From positions 1 through 6,597 of IMG/VR virus record IMGVR_UViG_3300029071_000005: a DNA stretch of 6,597 nt. The stretch is one strand, 5' to 3'. Below are positions 1 through 5,447 of this stretch, piece after piece (within the stretch, counting starts at the first letter, position 1; every line of letters begins with the position of its first letter). The notes under the pieces were generated by a model. The model saw only the letters and a program-made list of their open reading frames with translations, did not search any database and was not told the origin of the DNA. The DNA is from a virus (Duplodnaviria > Heunggongvirae > Uroviricota > Caudoviricetes). Made by a program: the position numbers and the translations under genes.

Positions 1-120
1 CGCCGCGCTCTGGAATTTTCGCCCCGCCGCGCTTATCAGGCTCTTACCAGCAAACGCCCCTTTGTTGGGGTGTCGCCAGTACGTGTTCACGCTGGGCGGA
101 AAAGGCAGGATCAGCTTCAT
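1..120 (-). CDS. rusA: RusA-like Holliday junction resolvase, N-terminal 40 codons only (gene runs off the window start)
   Basis: Minus-strand ATG at 120-118 overlaps the stop of the upstream gene (plus TCAT at 117-120 = ATGA on minus). Translation MKLILPFPPSVNTYWRHPNKGAFAGKSLISAAGRKFQSAA carries the LP-PPS-N-Y-RH N-terminal signature I recall for RusA-family resolvases. Partial, no stop within the window. Confidence 0.6.
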   Translation of the reverse strand, partial: MKLILPFPPSVNTYWRHPNKGAFAGKSLISAAGRKFQSAA

Positions 121-443
121 ACTTTCAGGTCCCTCTCATGTAACCAGTGGGTTGCACGCAGCCTTGCGTTTTCCTCACCGGCAAGCAGTGCGCGGATAAT
201 CCCGACTGCCTCGCTGTCGTCGTCCTTCACCGCGGTATGAAGCGTTATCCCCCGGGCCACACCACGCTTTATCGTGATGACGCCTTTTTTCTCCAGTGCG
301 CGAAGATGCTCCACCGCTGCATTCACTGAACGGTATCCCAGCATGGTTGCCACCTCCTGATTGGTTGGCGGGAAACCACGTTCTTTCTGATAAGAAATCA
401 GCATATCCAGCACCTGCTGCTGGCATTGAGTTAACGTCGTCAT
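117..443 (-). CDS. LexA-like DNA-binding domain protein lacking the S24 peptidase/dimerisation domain (108 aa)
   Basis: Track ORF 117..443. Residues 1-69 align without gaps to the E. coli LexA N-terminal winged-helix domain as I recall it (about half identical), with the recognition-helix segment SVNAAVEHLRALEKKG versus LexA SPNAAEEHLKALARKG. A hinge-like VGIIRALLAGEEN resembles LexA VGRVAAGEPLL, then the protein ends after about 25 more residues. ATGA overlaps at both ends (440-443 and 117-120). Confidence 0.75.
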   Translation of the reverse strand: MTTLTQCQQQVLDMLISYQKERGFPPTNQEVATMLGYRSVNAAVEHLRALEKKGVITIKRGVARGITLHTAVKDDDSEAVGIIRALLAGEENARLRATHWLHERDLKV

Positions 444-1583: not shown

Positions 1584-2402
1584 TCACCCCCTGAATCCTG
1601 CCGGGATCTGGCTGTAGTCCACGTTGTCGTAACTGGCTTTGAAGTACGGGTCCTCGCGTCTGGCTGCAGATACCGCAGGAACTTCCCAGGATTCTTCGAA
1701 ATGACGATCCGGACCAAAGAACGTGACAGCCTGTTTCACAAATTGTGTGCCGCTGTTACCCATCGCAGATACCCAGCCCGCGTAGCGTTTCACACCTTCC
1801 AGCATGGTTTCGGGTTTTACCCCCTCATTCAAACGGGCTTTCCAGGCTTTGAAGGCTGCAGATTTTGAATTGCCACCAGCACGTTTGGGGTATGCCAGCC
1901 ATGCCTGCTCAAACTCCGGAGAGTATTCCGGTCGGTTTGAACGAACTCGCACAGACTCATCAGCAGATGCACCAACAGCTATTGGTTCATTGACTGGTTC
2001 TTTGACTGGTTCAAAAGAGTGACTGGTTCTGGGTGAATCTCCTGCACCACCCCCTGGTGCAACTCCTGCACTACCTGGTGAATTTGCTGCACCAGATAGT
2101 GAATTATTTGCACTACCCCCTAGTGAATCTCCTGCACCATCAAGATGAAGGAGATAGATATTACTTGAGTTACCTTTTTCACCTTTCCGGGTGACTTTTT
2201 TTACCAGCCCGGAATCACAAAGGGCCGCAATATGATTCATCACAGAACGTTTGCTAATCTCGCACTGGTCAGCAATATGCTGGTAGCTGGGCCAGCACTC
2301 ACCCTGATCGCTGGCATTATCAGCCAGCTTGATCAGAACCAGTTTTCGCAATGGATTACCCACTCGAATTTTCATCGCTTTAACCATCAGCTCCATACTC
2401 AT
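1584..2402 (-). CDS. Phage replication initiator: N-terminal HTH domain, repetitive Gly/Ser/Ala/Pro linker, C-terminal replisome-organiser-like domain
   Basis: Track ORF 1584..2402. N-terminus KIRVGNPLRKLVLIKLADNASDQGECWPSYQHIADQCEISKRSVMNHIAALCDSGLV looks like the HTH module of phage replication initiators. C-terminal PEFEQAWLAYPKRAGGNSKSAAFKAWKARL matches the F-x-x-W-x-x-YPK...A...W motif I associate with phage replisome-organiser/DnaD-like domains. Start ATG 2402-2400 overlaps the upstream stop (ATGA). Confidence 0.8.
   Translation of the reverse strand: MSMELMVKAMKIRVGNPLRKLVLIKLADNASDQGECWPSYQHIADQCEISKRSVMNHIAALCDSGLVKKVTRKGEKGNSSNIYLLHLDGAGDSLGGSANNSLSGAANSPGSAGVAPGGGAGDSPRTSHSFEPVKEPVNEPIAVGASADESVRVRSNRPEYSPEFEQAWLAYPKRAGGNSKSAAFKAWKARLNEGVKPETMLEGVKRYAGWVSAMGNSGTQFVKQAVTFFGPDRHFEESWEVPAVSAARREDPYFKASYDNVDYSQIPAGFRG
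1991..2029. repeat. Three direct copies of TGACTGGTTC inside the replication-initiator gene
   Basis: TGACTGGTTC at 1991-2000, 2003-2012 and 2020-2029, with a degenerate TGGTTC at 1983-1988. Encodes a PVKEPVNEP stretch of the initiator. Confidence 0.6.
2032..2139. repeat. Five 18-bp iteron-like direct repeats (candidate origin of replication embedded in the initiator gene)
   Basis: GGTGAATCTCCTGCACCA 2032-2049, GGTGCAACTCCTGCACTA 2056-2073, GGTGAATTTGCTGCACCA 2077-2094, AGTGAATTATTTGCACTA 2099-2116, AGTGAATCTCCTGCACCA 2122-2139, spaced 21-24 bp apart. An AT-rich stretch follows at about 2140-2200. Same arrangement as lambda ori inside the O gene. Confidence 0.65.
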
Positions 2403-2623
2403 GCTGCACCTCCGAGATGCTTCATGTTTTTTCTGGAGCGAAAGGCTATAAGCGGCATACTGACGCGGTAATTACGGCCCAGCGGTTCACAAACCACCTT
2501 CTGACATTCACGGTCAACCAGGCTAACACGTAGAACATGCCCTGCAGGCGTGGTGTACCACTGACCCGGACGAGGACAACGGAAAGTCTGATTGGTAAAA
2601 CGTTTGAAAATATTCCGGATCAT
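2399..2623 (-). CDS. Hypothetical small protein (74 aa), possibly Cys-containing zinc-ribbon-like
   Basis: Track ORF 2399..2623. ATGA overlaps at both ends (2620-2623 and 2399-2402) link it to Rha and the replication gene. Contains the paired cysteines FRCPRPG...DRECQKVVCE. No family recognised. Confidence 0.5.
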   Translation of the reverse strand: MIRNIFKRFTNQTFRCPRPGQWYTTPAGHVLRVSLVDRECQKVVCEPLGRNYRVSMPLIAFRSRKNMKHLGGAA

Positions 2624-3165
2624 TTGCGCCCCCTTACCTCTGAAGGGTTCAGCGACAAATTTATGAGGCAGGCCAGCGCCGAAGCATCATTAATATAGTC
2701 ATATAAGCTAACAGCCAGCGGAGATTCGGCTTTTGCCAACATAGGATAAAGCTGCTGCAGCCAGACCTGATGAATTGATGAAATGTAGGAACAGAGAACG
2801 CTGGCGTTATGTGCAACGTCGCTCGGTACAGCGGGCCTTGAAAGCTGTTTCTCCATCTGGTTAAAGGCATTGATGTATGCCTCTTTGAACTGGGCAGCAC
2901 GTTTACCCGTGAAACCCATAGCAAGAAACGCAAAGCCGTCGCGGGTTATTTGATAGCAAGGTAGTTTGCGGCCTGTGCAATCGGTGTAATCACTCACCGA
3001 AAAATTGCGGGCAGTGAATGATGCGGAGCATTCAAGCGTGCGGATCTTTTTCAGTACATCGTCATGACGTTTGGAGAAGAAGTTGGCAACAGCCAGGGAT
3101 GAAGTAACAGCCTGACCATCAACGATGGCAATTTCAGGTTGAGTGAGGGTTGGGATCGTAGCCAT
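2620..3165 (-). CDS. Rha-family phage regulatory protein (181 aa as called)
   Basis: C-terminal 181 codons of track ORF 2620..3771. MATIPTLTQPEIAIVDGQAVTSSLAVANFFSKRHDDVLKKIRTLE...GRKLPCYQITRDGFAFLAMGFTGKRAAQFKEAYINAFNQME is a classic Rha N-terminal domain. Start chosen at ATG 3165-3163, preceded by AAAGAGG (GAGG 9 nt upstream). The frame stays open a further 202 codons upstream, so the true start is uncertain. Confidence 0.8.
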   Translation of the reverse strand: MATIPTLTQPEIAIVDGQAVTSSLAVANFFSKRHDDVLKKIRTLECSASFTARNFSVSDYTDCTGRKLPCYQITRDGFAFLAMGFTGKRAAQFKEAYINAFNQMEKQLSRPAVPSDVAHNASVLCSYISSIHQVWLQQLYPMLAKAESPLAVSLYDYINDASALACLINLSLNPSEVRGRK

Positions 3166-3333
3166 GATGGCAGCCTCTTTGGTGATTTTAAATAACTCAC
3201 CACCAAGGCTTTCCACGACCTTATTGGTGGTGAGACGTACAGGGGTGGAAATACCGGTCACCAAAGAACCCGGCCCAACCGAAGTTGGCCCTGCACGCCC
3301 CACCATAATTTGGGCGTAATGCTGCTCATGACA

Positions 3334-3357
3334 CAAAAAAACCGCAAGAGCGCGGTT
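3334..3357 (-). terminator. Candidate intrinsic terminator on the minus strand
   Basis: Minus-strand RNA AACCGC-GCUCUU-GCGGUU followed by UUUUUGUG (plus-strand A7 run at 3335-3341, arms 3340-3345 and 3352-3357). 6-bp stem, 6-nt loop, U-tract. Lies between the 59-aa ORF stop and the Rha start. Confidence 0.45.
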
Positions 3358-3442
3358 GTGCGCTTTGGTGAATTCCGGGTTTCCACGCCCGGCACCCGCT
3401 TTATAAGGTGCCTGAACAGTGTAACGTCCCGGAATGGCAGAA

Positions 3443-3622
3443 TCAATGTGCTGGTGGTCCTTCACACTCAACAAAATCACGCCTGAATTTCCACAAAGGA
3501 CTAAAGCACTCATGCGGGTAGTCTTTGCGAAGATAGATAACGCGCTGTGTTTCTGGCTCCCAACGAATAACATGAACATAAAGTCCTCTTCCGTCACGAA
3601 ACCAGCGGTTAAGTTCCTGCAC
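3443..3622 (-). CDS. Hypothetical 59-aa protein absent from the ORF track (GTG start, just under the 60-aa cutoff)
   Basis: Reading minus strand from GTG 3622-3620 to TGA 3445-3443 gives VQELNRWFRDGRGLYVHVIRWEPETQRVIYLRKDYPHECFSPLWKFRRDFVECEGPPAH, checked codon by codon. G-rich SD-like GGGGGG lies 6 nt upstream. It is out of frame with, and entirely inside, the N-terminal part of the 383-aa track ORF. No family recognised with confidence. Confidence 0.4.
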   Translation of the reverse strand: MQELNRWFRDGRGLYVHVIRWEPETQRVIYLRKDYPHECFSPLWKFRRDFVECEGPPAH

Positions 3623-3652
3623 AACTCGCCCCCCACAGTCAGGTAAAGTTCT

Positions 3653-3668
3653 CTGTGGTTACTTACAG
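3653..3668. promoter_or_regulatory. LexA (SOS) box core match CTGT-N8-ACAG
   Basis: CTGTGGTTACTTACAG at 3653-3668. It is the only exact CTGT-N8-ACAG I found in the window. Lies 31 bp upstream (minus strand) of the 59-aa ORF start, in the gap after the CII-like gene. The spacer is less AT-rich than strong chromosomal SOS boxes. Confidence 0.4.
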
Positions 3669-3767
3669 CCAGGTGATTTGGTAATCTGCATTCATGCCGT
3701 AACAACAGGTGTTCAGCCACGCGGACCACCAACTGTTGCGACCAACGGTTATTTGCCGTTAAACTGT

Positions 3768-4385
3768 TCATGCGTTAGTTTCTCCACAACCAGAAGCAAT
3801 CGACGCCACGACGCCCGGAGCTGCACACTCGCGGGCGTTACTCTTTTCCGGTGCACAAAAAACACGAAATAACAGTGTTAAATGCTCCTGCCACTTCGCC
3901 ATTACTTGGTAGCTGTTCTCTTCGATTTGCTCACGCTCAGCCTGGTCAATAACTCCATCAGCAGTTGCCTTGCGTAAGTACTGGGAATGCTTGCCAATCC
4001 ATTCTATTGACTCCATCAGCCGCTGATTAATGTCACCATTGCCAATGTCATCAATGACCACCAGCGGCACAAACACCCCATTACTACGACGGGCTATTGC
4101 ATCTGTTACATGCCTGGTACCACTGGCATCCTGTAAAACCATGGCCCACTCAAGTGGAAAAATTTGATCCCCACCGCTACGCAGTCTGTTATGCAATTGA
4201 TCTTTTGCTGGGGTGATATCATCAGATTTATACAAACCAAGAATTTCTGCTGCTTCCTCATAGCCATGAGGTAAATCAGCAATCGTTCTTCGTATTGCTG
4301 CCACCAGCCATGCTGGTTGTTTATCAACTTTCCATTCAGGTTCTTTACCCACGGCTATCTCCTTAAAACTGTGGTTACTTTCCAT
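3768..4385 (-). CDS. CII-like / YdaT-like early regulatory protein (205 aa)
   Basis: Track ORF 3768..4385. Second gene after cro-like, the position of cII. AAEILGLYKSDDITPAKDQLHNRLRSGGDQIFPLEWAMVL loosely parallels lambda CII AEAVGVDKSQISRWKRDWIPKFSMLLAVLEWGVV as I recall it. Start ATG 4385 overlaps the last 11 nt of the cro-like gene. Confidence 0.55.
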   Translation of the reverse strand: MESNHSFKEIAVGKEPEWKVDKQPAWLVAAIRRTIADLPHGYEEAAEILGLYKSDDITPAKDQLHNRLRSGGDQIFPLEWAMVLQDASGTRHVTDAIARRSNGVFVPLVVIDDIGNGDINQRLMESIEWIGKHSQYLRKATADGVIDQAEREQIEENSYQVMAKWQEHLTLLFRVFCAPEKSNARECAAPGVVASIASGCGETNA

Positions 4386-4623
4386 CTGATAAGTCTTTAA
4401 TCTTTTGAAAAATATCTGGACGTAATTTTTCTTTTGATACGCCAGTGGTCATTTCAATAAATATCGAGAGCTTTGCAGGGGGACGCTTTTCTCTGTTCAA
4501 CCAGTTCCAGACATGTTGTTGCTTTACTAAACGACCACTGCTGGCTGTGAGCTTCCGAGCCAATTCTGATTGACCACCAGCCAGAGCGATTGCCTCTGAT
4601 AAGGCTAATTGCTCAGGTGTCAT
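4375..4623 (-). CDS. Cro-like / YdaS-like HTH transcriptional regulator (82 aa)
   Basis: Track ORF 4375..4623. HTH segment GGQSELARKLTASSGRLVKQQHVWNWL. Transcribed divergently from the repressor; GGAG lies 6 nt upstream of the ATG; a TATAAT -10 lies upstream on the minus strand. Confidence 0.8.
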   Translation of the reverse strand: MTPEQLALSEAIALAGGQSELARKLTASSGRLVKQQHVWNWLNREKRPPAKLSIFIEMTTGVSKEKLRPDIFQKIKDLSDGK

Positions 4624-4760: not shown

Positions 4761-5447
4761 GTGAAAACATTGGCAGAAAGACTAAAAAGCGAAAGAGAAA
4801 AAGCAGGAATGAGTCAGGCGCAACTAGCTGAAAAAATTGGGCTTTCACAACAATCCGTAGCGAAAATCGAGAATGGAGAAACTCAACAGCCTCGGAAAAT
4901 TAAAGAGATTGCTAAAGTGTTAGGGGTTTCTCAAAAGTGGTTGCAATTGGGCATTGAGGATAACGCGTCTTTCCCAGACCTTGTTGTAAAGGAGGCTGAA
5001 AGTACAGCATTAGATCCTGACATTTTTGCAAACATTCCAGTCCTAGATGTCGAGTTATCAGCGGGTAATGGATGTTTGGCTGAAATAGTTGAATCAACTG
5101 TAGACTGGTTCCCGCTAAGAAGGATTGATTTAAGAAAAGCTGGTGTATGTGTCTCCAATGCAAAGATCGTAAAAATTTGGGGCAATAGTTTACTACCTGT
5201 ACTTAACAATGGAGATTTTGTTGCTGTTGATGTTTCCCAAACGGTTCCTATTCGTGATGGGGATCTTTATGCCATACGTGATGGCGTATTACTTAGAGTT
5301 AAAATATTGATCAATTTACCTGACGGTGGTCTGATTCTAAGAAGTTTCAATAAAGATGAGTATCCAGATGAAATACTCACCTTCGAAGATAGGCGTTCCA
5401 GAATTCACGTTATAGGTAGAGTATTCTGGTCATCGCGCACTTGGTAA
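4761..5447 (+). CDS. CI-like prophage repressor: N-terminal XRE-type HTH plus C-terminal S24 (LexA-like) autopeptidase domain
   Basis: Track ORF 4761..5447, GTG start 10 nt after GAGGGGG. HTH is MSQAQLAEKIGLSQQSVAKIENG. S24 signatures: candidate Ala-Gly cleavage site in LSAGNG, Ser motif WGNSLLPVLNNGDFVAVD (compare LexA GMSM...GDLLAV), Lys motif LLRVKIL (compare LexA VTVKRLK). Confidence 0.85.
   Translation: MKTLAERLKSEREKAGMSQAQLAEKIGLSQQSVAKIENGETQQPRKIKEIAKVLGVSQKWLQLGIEDNASFPDLVVKEAESTALDPDIFANIPVLDVELSAGNGCLAEIVESTVDWFPLRRIDLRKAGVCVSNAKIVKIWGNSLLPVLNNGDFVAVDVSQTVPIRDGDLYAIRDGVLLRVKILINLPDGGLILRSFNKDEYPDEILTFEDRRSRIHVIGRVFWSSRTW

What the first reader, a model, noticed from the sequence alone, without database searches (positions are those of the whole stretch)
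2620..3771. 383-codon open frame versus a 181-aa Rha gene: over-extended ORF or genuine N-terminal extension
The recognisable Rha domain starts at the internal Met (MATIPTL...) with its own GAGG ribosome-binding site. The same frame stays open for 202 further codons up to an ATG (3771) that overlaps the stop of the CII-like gene. The upstream segment has an odd composition (Cys/His/Arg-rich), contains a terminator-like hairpin and the LexA box, and harbours the out-of-frame 59-aa ORF. I read the long ORF as an annotation trap, but a real fusion or a recently lost stop cannot be excluded from sequence alone. Another in-frame ATG at 3306 would give a 47-aa extension.
Basis: partly seen in the sequence, partly recalled or inferred. 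Interest (0 to 1): 0.45.

Follow-up and report, generated by a model that had tools for sequence, protein, structure and literature searches.

The report
Rha gene with RNA-spanning leader ORF
The 383-codon frame is not a single protein: an ordinary 181-residue Rha phage regulator with its own start is preceded by a stretch holding a promoter, two small regulatory RNA genes and a small gene in another frame. That stretch has been kept readable by ribosomes, as in satellite phage P4, without encoding a conserved protein.

Summary
ORF 3771..2620(-) has 383 codons, and its ATG overlaps the stop of the CII-like gene. The Rha domain begins at Met203 (ATG 3165) behind a GAGG.

The upstream 202 codons contain, in order:
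- a DUF4222 gene in another frame (3622..3443)
- a promoter homologous to P1's c4 promoter
- an IsrK-like sRNA with a terminator (3411..3335)
- a C4/CI-type antisense RNA (3310..3223), whose loops pair with the Rha ribosome-binding site

In the long frame these codons show no protein-level constraint (pN/pS about 1). The C4 RNA shows strong covariation. An AlphaFold model of the "Ash" part has no fold.

The frame is nevertheless not an accident:
- 24 of 27 distinct leaders keep the C4 AUG (3306) in frame with Rha, with no stops.
- In 12 of 16 genomic contexts the long frame starts on the stop codon of whatever gene lies upstream.

This matches the P4 eta/kil nested genes. There, translating the long frame lets upstream transcripts escape RNA immunity, while the short product starts internally.

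Verdict: a new member of a known kind. Pfam's "Ash" domain is the translation of these RNA genes.

The parts
2620..3771 (-). 383-codon open frame, an eta-like read-through ORF ending in Rha. Its ATG 3771-3769 overlaps the TGA 3770-3768 of the upstream CII-like gene.
   Evidence: RefSeq and GenBank annotate it as one CDS in E. coli 510016, mEp460, cdtI and ST64B Sb41.
3768..4385 (-). CII/YmfL-like gene (Pfam Phage_CP76). Its stop codon overlaps the start of the long frame in the motif ATGA.
3653..3668 (.). CTGT-N8-ACAG box, a candidate LexA site that is not conserved outside the E. coli relatives.
3443..3622 (-). DUF4222 gene (59 aa, GTG start), in a different frame from the long ORF.
   Evidence: Pfam E 9.5e-14 and phrog_1343. 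Variable sites fall on its third codon positions, 3/15/4 when counted by long-frame position. pN/pS is 0.13 in its own frame against 1.69 in the long frame.
3418..3446 (-). Putative sigma-70 promoter of the RNA module: -35 TTGATT 3446-3441 (overlapping the DUF4222 stop), a 17-nt spacer, -10 TACACT 3423-3418, and a start near 3411.
   Evidence: It aligns position for position with the annotated P1 promoter P1c4/P51b, TTGACC-17-TATAGT. It is nearly invariant in 11 loci. It scores 8 of 12 consensus matches, so the promoter scan did not flag it. Mosaic breakpoints in IMG/VR relatives lie just upstream of it.
3335..3411 (-). IsrK-like sRNA, equivalent to the seqA/a1b1 region. It carries target sites a1 (GTGGAAA, 3386-3380) and b1 (TCACCAAAG, 3371-3363) and an intrinsic terminator at 3357-3335.
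   Evidence: Rfam RF01394 scores 67 bits against a gathering score of 50, E 3.8e-13. The terminator was found. Complementarity to the C4 loops is shown.
3223..3310 (-). C4/CI-type antisense RNA. Loop b' is at 3269-3258 and a' at 3251-3245. The conserved AUG 3306-3304 lies at the base of the main stem.
   Evidence: Rfam RF01695 scores 83.6 bits against a gathering score of 45, E 6e-16. Covariation: 98.6% of cells paired, 15 pairs and 88 cells with changes on both sides, 0 of 500 shuffles as good, and slid controls of 12 cells or fewer.
3166..3306 (-). 47-codon leader ORF starting at the C4 AUG, homologous to Gifsy-1 orf45 but fused in frame to Rha. It contains target sites a2 (3216-3210) and b2 (3185-3176); b2 overlaps the Rha Shine-Dalgarno GAGG at 3177-3174.
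   Evidence: pN/pS is 0.90.
2620..3165 (-). Rha-family regulator (antirepressor-like), 181 aa, starting at the internal Met.
   Evidence: Pfam and TIGRFAM hits. Homologues align from residue 1. Variable sites by codon position are 49/43/103. pN/pS is 0.36.
2399..2623 (-). 74-aa ORF whose ATG overlaps the Rha stop in the motif ATGA. It is the next gene of the operon.
   Evidence: phrog_1153 E 1.5e-45. Annotated as a hypothetical protein in all relatives.

Best explanation
The region is a P4/P1/Gifsy-1-type RNA immunity module placed in the early rightward operon of a lambdoid prophage, between the CII-like gene and the replication genes. The 383-codon frame is its eta-like read-through ORF, with Rha nested at the end.

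Proposed mechanism, with the basis for each step:
1. An internal promoter (3446-3418) makes a short IsrK-like RNA that stops at the terminator 3357-3335. Some transcripts read through. This is inferred from homology to P1 and Gifsy-1.
2. Read-through RNA is processed to a C4/CI-type RNA. In P1 the annotated mature 5' end is the G of the conserved AUG.
3. The C4 loops a' and b' pair with a2 and b2, covering the Rha Shine-Dalgarno. They also pair with a1 and b1 inside IsrK. The pairing potential and its co-variation are shown here. Its effect is inferred from P1, P4 and N15: translation is blocked and/or transcription terminates early. Rha and the downstream replication genes therefore stay off in the lysogen.
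4. The short products start at ATG 3165 (181-aa Rha). They probably also start at the C4 AUG 3306, which would give a 228-aa form. This AUG is the homologue of the Gifsy-1 orf45 start, whose translation is needed to express the downstream antirepressor.
5. When transcription arrives from upstream (the Cro/CII operon), ribosomes finishing the CII-like gene can restart at the overlapping ATG 3771. They would then translate through the promoter, IsrK terminator and C4 region. This would prevent the RNA structures and pairings from forming, so upstream transcripts escape the RNA immunity, as reported for P4 eta. This step is inferred from frame conservation, start/stop overlaps and the P4 precedent.

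The amino-acid sequence of the first 202 codons is not what is selected. Only their translatability is.
For: RNA genes and their targets:
- Rfam hits for IsrK and C4.
- C4 covariation.
- Three-way complementarity of a'/a1/a2 is a perfect 7 nt in all 23 loci, with about 11 different alleles. The b' loop matches the cognate leader over a mean of 9.0 nt, against 4.25 nt for non-cognate leaders, and the match ends in the Shine-Dalgarno.

Positional homology of the Rha start:
- P1 layout: promoter, a1, b1, c4, a2, b2, then GAGG plus 8 nt plus ATG of icd.
- Gifsy-1: IsrK, C4, orf45 and anrP.
- P4 kil start AGGAGGCTGCCATCATGGCTAC against the window's AAGAGGCTGCCATCATGGCTAC.

No protein-level constraint upstream of Met203.

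Selection for an open frame:
- 24 of 27 distinct leaders have lengths of 135, 138 or 141 nt and no stop in the Rha frame. The other frames carry 64 and 37 stops.
- 1-nt indels are compensated downstream.
- The frame is open in 74 of 78 informative IMG/VR relatives. It is also open in ST64B, Citrobacter and a Stx1a phage that has a different upstream gene.
- The long frame starts on (ATGA, GTGA, TGATG) or 3 nt after the stop of the upstream gene in 12 of 16 contexts. The upstream genes are a CII-like gene, an HTH protein, a 63-aa ORF, DUF4222, a helicase, or another Ash-Rha ORF.

P4 precedent:
- Summary of Forti et al. 1999 in PMC10111431.
- The P4 sequence has three ATGs giving 197-199 codons that overlap the ORF88 stop, the C4 AUG in frame, and a 65-codon kil.
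- Pfam Phage_ASH hits both that P4 ORF and this window.

Gifsy-1 orf45 translation and coupling: PMC4825925.

Folding: two alternative folds of similar energy are predicted, -104.9 and -101.6 kcal/mol, with z = -3.5.
Against: - There is no direct evidence of translation or transcripts for this locus.
- The long frame overlaps a real gene (DUF4222) in another frame for 180 nt, which is awkward for a translated ORF.
- Segment 3771-3623 shows no clear signal in any frame (pN/pS 0.49, 1.20 and 0.58).
- Natural variants break the frame. 118970_sal3 has a +1 T. L120 has a 1-nt deletion in the terminator T-run. L020 and L023 have stops between IsrK and C4. L165 has a 1-nt deletion in the leader.
- Distant relatives (Aeromonas, Erwinia, Marinomonas) and P1 have the RNAs without the open frame, so it is not essential to the RNA system.
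- ATG 3306 has no obvious Shine-Dalgarno.
- The promoter was not picked up by the consensus scan.
- The primary P4 paper could not be read here.
- Many of the compared loci are related by descent, so the counts overstate independence.
Confidence: 0.55

Rival explanations
1. Only the last 47 codons of the extension matter. Translation starts at the C4 AUG (3306), as for Gifsy-1 orf45, and/or at 3165. The 155 codons from 3771 to 3307 are open through chance plus shared ancestry and are never translated in that frame.
For: - pN/pS is about 1 or uninformative over 3771-3307.
- A real gene in another frame lies inside this stretch.
- An internal promoter means the main module transcript starts at about 3411.
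- The chance of openness is modest once DUF4222's own codon bias is allowed for: about 0.095 x 0.6 x 0.32.
- The frame is broken between IsrK and C4 in L020, L023 and L120.
Against: - The start/stop overlap with the upstream gene recurs in 12 of 16 contexts, with six kinds of upstream gene.
- The frame stays open across unrelated upstream sequence, including about 700 nt antisense to a TumE/HVO_A0114 gene pair.
- P4 eta has the same layout and is reported to be translated.
Confidence: 0.25
2. The ORF is a pure annotation artefact. The only product is the 181-aa Rha from ATG 3165, the whole 202-codon upstream frame is accidental, and gene callers simply take the longest ORF.
For: - Rha homologues start at the internal Met.
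- The C4 target b2 covers its Shine-Dalgarno, as for P1 icd.
- The upstream frame shows no coding periodicity.
- Annotators disagree. Phage 1720a-02 and 118970_sal3 are annotated differently from mEp460, cdtI and RefSeq.
Against: - Only 0.08% of shuffles give a 202-codon open frame.
- 24 of 27 distinct leaders are in frame with no stop, while the other frames carry 101 stops in total.
- Frameshifts are compensated downstream.
- The start overlaps the upstream stop across many contexts.
- The homologous AUG is used in Gifsy-1.
Confidence: 0.1
3. It is a genuine two-domain protein, with a folded, functional N-terminal "Ash" domain (Pfam PF10554) fused to Rha, as current databases and some papers assume.
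For: - Pfam Phage_ASH scores 58.9 bits over aa 117-213, above the family's cut-off.
- PHROG families 821, 995, 3960 and 6928 include the extension.
- RefSeq annotates many "ash family proteins".
- PMC8951638 describes Rha proteins with an Ash domain.
Against: - The Ash match coincides exactly with the IsrK and C4 RNA genes here, in P4 and in N15.
- pN/pS is 0.9-1.0.
- Changes are compensatory for RNA stems.
- Identical nucleotides are translated as PVRLTT or LYVSPP, and as AHNRALAVF or RTTALLRF, in different members.
- The AlphaFold model has pLDDT 47.5, pTM 0.11 and no secondary structure.
- A promoter and a terminator lie inside the "domain".
- The real P4 epsilon protein belongs to a different Pfam family, PF25738.
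Confidence: 0.05

Closest known systems
Satellite phage P4 immunity region: eta/kil nested genes with seqA, CI RNA and seqC (Forti et al. 1999, as summarised in PMC10111431)
   Same: - A long ORF whose ATG overlaps the stop of the upstream gene.
- A constitutive promoter inside the ORF.
- An IsrK/seqA-like element and a C4/CI RNA inside the ORF, in the same frame.
- A nested shorter product starting about 55 nt after the RNA, from an almost identical ribosome-binding site and start (GAGGCTGCCATCATGGCTAC).
- Pfam Phage_ASH hits both ORFs.
   Different: - The nested product here is a 181-aa Rha regulator, not the 65-aa Kil.
- The host element is a lambdoid prophage, and the upstream partner is a CII-like gene rather than an AlpA/Vis homologue.
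- The long frame additionally runs across a DUF4222 gene in another frame.
- Nothing has been tested experimentally here.
Phage P1/P7 immI operon: c4 antisense RNA, icd and ant1/ant2
   Same: - A homologous promoter, and the order a1, b1, C4 RNA, a2, b2.
- b2 overlaps the Shine-Dalgarno of the first gene, and the GAGG-to-ATG spacing is the same.
- The regulated genes are antirepressor-type.
- Specificity loops co-vary with their targets.
   Different: - In P1 the frame from the C4 AUG has a TAA at codon 15, so there is no read-through ORF.
- The P1 first gene is icd, followed by ant, rather than Rha.
- P1 gives no Rfam isrK hit at gathering score, only c4-a1b1.
Salmonella Gifsy-1 isrK-orf45-anrP locus (PMC4825925)
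   Same: - IsrK sRNA with a terminator, read-through into a C4-like RNA (STnc1160), and a leader ORF starting at the same conserved AUG inside C4.
- An antirepressor-type gene follows, with the same Shine-Dalgarno layout.
   Different: - orf45 stops on the anrP start (ATGA). Here the leader is fused in frame to the downstream gene.
- AnrP has an ORF6N domain, not Rha.
- The Gifsy-1 module sits after the Q gene, not between CII and the replication genes.
Phage N15 anti-immunity region (CA RNA; Ravin et al. 1999, cited from my own knowledge)
   Same: IsrK and C4 Rfam hits followed by small ORFs. The annotated gp32 overlaps the C4 hit and gives a Pfam Ash match.
   Different: The downstream genes differ, and the region was not examined further here.

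Membership tests
C4 antisense RNA (Rfam RF01695; P1/P7 c4, P4 CI) | Match to the covariance model above the gathering score | tested here: met
   83.6 bits against a gathering score of 45, E 6e-16, full length 1-87.
C4 antisense RNA (Rfam RF01695; P1/P7 c4, P4 CI) | Long closing stem with two internal hairpins, supported by compensatory changes | tested here: met
   In 25 sequences, 98.6% of cells are paired. 15 pairs and 88 cells have changes on both sides, 0 of 500 shuffles do as well, and slid controls give 12 cells or fewer.
C4 antisense RNA (Rfam RF01695; P1/P7 c4, P4 CI) | Loops a' and b' complementary to a1/b1 upstream and a2/b2 downstream, with b2 at the ribosome-binding site of the controlled gene | tested here: met
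   a' matches a1 and a2 over 7 nt. b' matches b2 over 10 nt and b1 over 9 nt. b2 overlaps GAGG. The sites co-vary across 23 loci.
C4 antisense RNA (Rfam RF01695; P1/P7 c4, P4 CI) | Processed from the operon transcript (RNase P in P1/P7) and acting in trans as a repressor | not testable with these tools
   Only sequence features are visible: an invariant ACCACC 3' end, and the annotated P1 mature 5' end falling on the G of the conserved AUG.
IsrK sRNA (Rfam RF01394) and the Gifsy-1 isrK-orf45-anrP arrangement | Covariance-model match with an intrinsic terminator | tested here: met
   67 bits against a gathering score of 50. Terminator hairpin 3357-3340 plus a T-run.
IsrK sRNA (Rfam RF01394) and the Gifsy-1 isrK-orf45-anrP arrangement | Leader ORF starting at the AUG inside the C4-like RNA | tested here: met
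   ATG 3306 is at C4 position 5-7, as for orf45 in Gifsy-1.
IsrK sRNA (Rfam RF01394) and the Gifsy-1 isrK-orf45-anrP arrangement | Leader ORF stop overlapping the start of the downstream gene (AUGA coupling) | tested here: not met
   Here the leader runs in frame into Rha without a stop. The AUGA form is seen in Gifsy-1 and Erwinia L072.
P4 eta/kil-type nested read-through ORF | Long ORF that starts at the stop of the upstream gene and spans the internal promoter, the seqA/IsrK element and the CI/C4 RNA in one frame | tested here: met
   Window. P4. The start/stop overlap is seen in 12 of 16 contexts.
P4 eta/kil-type nested read-through ORF | Shorter product nested in the same frame, starting just after the RNA at an RNA-controlled ribosome-binding site | tested here: met
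   The Rha ATG 3165 context is almost identical to the P4 kil ATG 8365 context.
P4 eta/kil-type nested read-through ORF | Translation of the long ORF prevents termination of transcripts coming from an upstream promoter | not testable with these tools
   Only indirect support is available: the frame is kept open without amino-acid constraint.
Rha family regulator (Pfam PF09669, TIGR02681) | Profile match above the cut-off and a homologous N-terminus | tested here: met
   106.2 bits against a cut-off of 29.9, and 102.6 bits against 45.95. Homologues align from Met203.
Pfam PF10554 Phage_ASH, taken as a protein domain | Profile match above the cut-off | tested here: met
   58.9 bits against a cut-off of 26, aa 117-213.
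Pfam PF10554 Phage_ASH, taken as a protein domain | Sequence conserved because of selection on a folded protein | tested here: not met
   pN/pS is 0.90-0.99. Members show frame switches. The AlphaFold model has pLDDT 47.5 and no secondary structure. The match coincides with two RNA genes here, in P4 and in N15.
DUF4222 (PF13973) | Profile match and purifying selection in its own frame | tested here: met
   E 9.5e-14. pN/pS is 0.13.
LexA (SOS) box | CTGT-N8-ACAG palindrome, conserved and placed at a promoter | tested here: inconclusive
   The pattern is present once, with 0.10 expected by chance. It is not conserved in ST64B, Citrobacter or the Stx1a phage. No promoter was detected around it.

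The most novel reading that the evidence does not exclude
In a large clade of enterobacterial lambdoid prophages, ribosome transit itself is the selected function of a 100-400-codon frame. The frame is kept open, and hooked to whatever gene lies upstream, across a promoter, a terminator, two RNA genes, an overlapping DUF4222 gene, or even the antisense strand of a toxin-antitoxin pair. This lets early-operon transcripts override RNA-based immunity. It would also produce N-terminally extended Rha isoforms. The start codon of the shorter leader (AUG 3306) would be destroyed whenever RNase P releases the C4 RNA, making RNA processing and translation mutually exclusive fates of one transcript.
Probability: 0.4. 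Interest if true: 0.55.

Novelty: new member of a known kind. Interest (0 to 1): 0.45.

Why it matters
- Mechanism. The result extends a translation-versus-RNA-immunity switch, worked out only in satellite P4 and in related form in P1, N15 and Gifsy-1, to a very common family of E. coli, Shigella and Salmonella prophages. This family includes Stx-converting phages. The query region gives some match in 2947 of 5426 complete E. coli genomes. There the switch would gate an antirepressor-like Rha protein and the replication genes, and so prophage induction.
- Annotation. RefSeq, Pfam (PF10554 "Ash") and several PHROG families treat the translation of two RNA genes as a protein domain. Published surveys have used PF10554 as a marker for P4 epsilon, or as an uncharacterised domain of Rha proteins. 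Its conservation is better explained by the RNA genes.

Tried and rejected
- Codon-usage log-odds, trained on the window's other genes. The long frame scores as well as Rha (0.02-0.27 per codon), mainly because the other frames contain stops. The test is uninformative.
- Consensus promoter scan of 3100-3850 found nothing. The module promoter was identified only by alignment to the annotated P1 promoter.
- LexA box as the key regulator. The pattern is real but is not conserved beyond close relatives, so I did not build on it.
- My first working conclusion was that the whole extension is spurious and PF10554 is simply an artefact. I revised it after finding the frame conservation, the start/stop overlaps and the P4 eta precedent. 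The region is probably translated but is not protein-constrained.
- The idea that long upstream frames in Edwardsiella and Izhakiella encode extra domains was rejected. They run antisense to TumE and HVO_A0114 genes.
- The search for homologous proteins with the Ash segment returned mostly partial ORFs. It was useful only for the alignment and frame-switch evidence, not for a survey of domain architectures.
- The primary P4 paper (PMID 10464191, PMC94026) is not held.
- A search for any paper flagging PF10554 as RNA-derived found none.

Full report
**Observation.** The window carries the immunity and early region of a lambdoid prophage:
- an S24/HTH repressor at 4761..5447(+)
- a Cro/YdaS-like gene at 4623..4375(-)
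- a CII/CP76-like gene (YmfL) at 4385..3768(-)
- the ORF in question at 3771..2620(-)
- a 74-aa ORF, a replication gene (HTH_36/DnaD_N), PerC, Dam and a LexA-DNA-binding-domain protein

The ORF has 383 codons. Its ATG (3771-3769) overlaps the TGA of the CII-like gene, and an in-frame TAA lies two codons further up. The Rha domain starts after Met203 (ATG 3165), which has GAGG 8 nt upstream. The hairpin, the 59-aa ORF, the ATG at 3306 and a CTGT-N8-ACAG box are all present. The box is weak evidence: 0.10 are expected by chance, and it is not conserved in ST64B, Citrobacter or a Stx1a phage. The "Cys/His/Arg-rich" remark holds only for His.

**What lies inside the 202 upstream codons.** Rfam finds an IsrK sRNA (3411..3335, 67 bits) and a C4 antisense RNA (3310..3223, 83.6 bits), both on the strand of the ORF. 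The 59-aa ORF is a DUF4222 gene.

Just upstream of IsrK lies TTGATT-17 nt-TACACT (3446-3418). It aligns position for position with the annotated P1 promoter P1c4/P51b and is nearly invariant among relatives. Mosaic breakpoints in IMG/VR relatives fall just upstream of it, so the recombining unit begins there.

The Pfam "Phage_ASH" match (aa 117-213) coincides exactly with IsrK plus C4 plus the leader.

**The RNAs are real and target the Rha start.** On 25 C4 sequences from E. coli, Salmonella, Citrobacter, Serratia, Edwardsiella, Pantoea, Erwinia, Aeromonas and Marinomonas, 98.6% of cells pair. 15 pairs (88 cells) changed on both sides, no shuffle reached this, and slid controls gave 12 cells or fewer.

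The a' segment of C4 has a perfect 7-nt complement both inside IsrK (a1) and in the leader (a2) in all 23 loci, with about 11 different alleles. The b' loop matches its own leader over 9.0 nt on average, against 4.25 nt for non-cognate leaders. That match ends in the AGAGG that serves as the Rha Shine-Dalgarno.

This is the layout annotated in P1: a1, b1, c4, a2, b2, then GAGG plus 8 nt plus ATG of icd. The Rha ATG 3165 therefore sits where the RNA-controlled start codon sits in P1 (icd), Gifsy-1 (anrP) and P4 (kil).

Independently, tblastn matches of Rha relatives from 74 species start at residue 1 of the 181-aa form. In Aeromonas, Erwinia and Marinomonas the frame closes a few codons upstream, although IsrK and C4 are still present.

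**No protein-level constraint upstream of Met203.** Variable alignment columns, counted by long-frame codon position 1/2/3, are:
- 49/43/103 in Rha
- 25/28/28 in C4 plus leader
- 17/20/17 in promoter plus IsrK
- 10/15/13 in 3771-3623
- 3/15/4 over DUF4222, which corresponds to that gene's third positions

Pooled pN/pS values are:
- 0.36 for Rha
- 0.13 for DUF4222 in its own frame, against 1.69 in the long frame
- 0.99 and 0.90 for the two RNA segments
- 0.49, 1.20 and 0.58 for the three frames of 3771-3628

"Ash family" proteins from the databases read the same nucleotides in different frames: PVRLTT or LYVSPP, and AHNRALAVF or RTTALLRF. An AlphaFold model of the Ash region built with a 27-sequence alignment has pLDDT 47.5, pTM 0.11 and no secondary structure. 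Codon usage did not discriminate.

**The frame is nevertheless kept open.** Among 27 distinct sequences between the C4 AUG and the Rha AUG, 24 have lengths of 135, 138 or 141 nt. None of these has a stop in the Rha frame, while the other two frames carry 64 and 37 stops at 26 positions. Single-base indels inside C4 are compensated further on.

The full frame is open in 74 of 78 informative IMG/VR relatives. It is also open in ST64B (despite a 6-nt deletion and many substitutions), in Citrobacter, and in a Stx1a phage with a different upstream gene.

The most telling result concerns the start of the long frame. In 12 of 16 genomic contexts its first start codon overlaps (ATGA, GTGA, TGATG) or lies 3 nt after the stop of the upstream same-strand gene. 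That gene may be a CII-like gene, an HTH protein, a 63-aa ORF, DUF4222, a helicase, or another Ash-Rha ORF.

In Edwardsiella and Izhakiella the frame even stays open across about 700 nt antisense to a TumE/HVO_A0114 pair.

Shuffles give a 202-codon open frame in 0.08% of trials. The DUF4222 overlap alone is unsurprising given that gene's T-ending codons.

Exceptions exist: L008, L020, L023, L120, L165, and the distant clades.

**Comparison with known systems.** The closest match is the P4 immunity region. According to the summary of Forti et al. 1999 in PMC10111431:
- It contains the constitutive promoter, seqA and the CI RNA.
- Kil is its C-terminal part, made from an internal start.
- Translation of eta from upstream-promoter transcripts prevents termination.

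I verified the sequence features on P4 itself:
- ATGs at 8767, 8764 and 8761 (199, 198 and 197 codons) overlap the ORF88 stop.
- The IsrK and C4 Rfam hits lie inside the ORF, with the C4 AUG in frame.
- A 65-codon kil starts in the context AGGAGGCTGCCATCATGGCTAC, almost identical to the Rha start here.

Pfam Phage_ASH hits that P4 ORF (still annotated "cI gene product"). The real epsilon protein belongs to PF25738.

In Gifsy-1 the leader ORF orf45 starts at the same AUG inside C4, is translated, and is needed for expression of the antirepressor AnrP. Here that leader is fused in frame to Rha instead of stopping on its start.

P1 lacks the open frame, with a TAA at codon 15.

**Interpretation.**
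- The functional Rha protein starts at Met203, and possibly also at 3306.
- The upstream 202 codons are not a protein domain.
- Their translatability appears to be selected. By analogy with P4, this would let ribosomes coming from the early operon run through the promoter, terminator and C4 region and so override the RNA immunity that otherwise keeps Rha and the replication genes silent.

The RNA genes, their targets, the lack of amino-acid constraint and the frame conservation are shown here. The translation, its antitermination effect and the roles of IsrK and C4 at this locus are inferred.

**Novelty.** The mechanism is known in P4. Embedded CI and seqA homologues in Bro-network genes of satellites have been noted, and c4 plus isrK in APSE phages. 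This is therefore a new member of a known kind, in lambdoid prophages with Rha as the nested product.

The practical by-product is that the "Ash" domain (PF10554), "ash family protein" names and several PHROGs represent translated RNA genes. I found no paper stating this.

Noticed in passing
L021 2367-2453 (Providencia alcalifaciens); L046 2362-2452 (Ca. Phlomobacter): An sRNA-Xcc1 (RF02221) match occupies the position just upstream of Rha homologues where C4 sits in other loci. This suggests sRNA-Xcc1 is a functional analogue or relative of C4. The APSE phage paper also reports sRNA-Xcc1 upstream of an ORF6N gene.
   Followed up: partly
L022 1299-1493 and 2258-2446; L072 2004-2082 and 2361-2447; L119 53-904: Some genomes carry tandem IsrK-C4(-Rha) modules. 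The second long ORF starts on the stop codon of the first Ash-Rha ORF.
   Followed up: partly
L003 2809-3354 (E. coli EC25): The same DUF4222-IsrK-C4 leader sits in front of a different 77-aa ORF that begins MAT... at the homologous ATG. It has no Pfam match. RefSeq calls the fused frame an "ash family protein".
   Followed up: partly
window 117-443 (-): A 108-aa protein consists of a LexA DNA-binding domain only (PF01726, E 2.9e-19) with no S24 cleavage domain. It is a possible uncleavable LexA mimic. It might relate to the CTGT-N8-ACAG box at 3668-3653.
   Followed up: no
window 2399-2623 (-): A 74-aa ORF (phrog_1153, no Pfam match) has an ATG that overlaps the Rha stop. Its N-terminus MIRNIFK... 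appears fused upstream of the Ash translation in database proteins P0014 and P0022, which hints at recombination between modules.
   Followed up: no
L019 1513-2146 (-); L016 1498-2185 (-): A TumE toxin and HVO_A0114-type HTH gene pair lies on the opposite strand between DUF4222 and the IsrK promoter. The Rha-frame ORF stays open across its antisense strand.
   Followed up: partly
window 3762-3744 and 3735-3705: An inverted repeat AACGG-N7-CCGTT sits in a strongly conserved 38-nt block right after the CII-like stop. It is followed by a hypervariable patch, which carries a 6-nt deletion in ST64B.
   Followed up: no
L013 2210, L014 1622, L015 135, L016 1409, L017 1619, L019 1292; window 3447-3443: In other species the DUF4222 stop overlaps the start codon of the long ORF (ATGA or GTGA). 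In the window the junction reads CATTGA, with no start codon and a different frame relation, and the frame instead runs back through DUF4222 to the CII-like stop.
   Followed up: partly
L008 about 1745 (Salmonella phage 118970_sal3), against L004 (ST64B): A single extra T breaks both DUF4222 and the long frame in an otherwise near-identical phage. It is either a sequencing error or a natural frameshift.
   Followed up: no
L085 1543-1545 (P1) and window 3306-3304: The annotated mature 5' end of P1 C4 RNA is the G of the conserved AUG. Processing that releases C4 would therefore destroy the leader-ORF start codon.
   Followed up: partly
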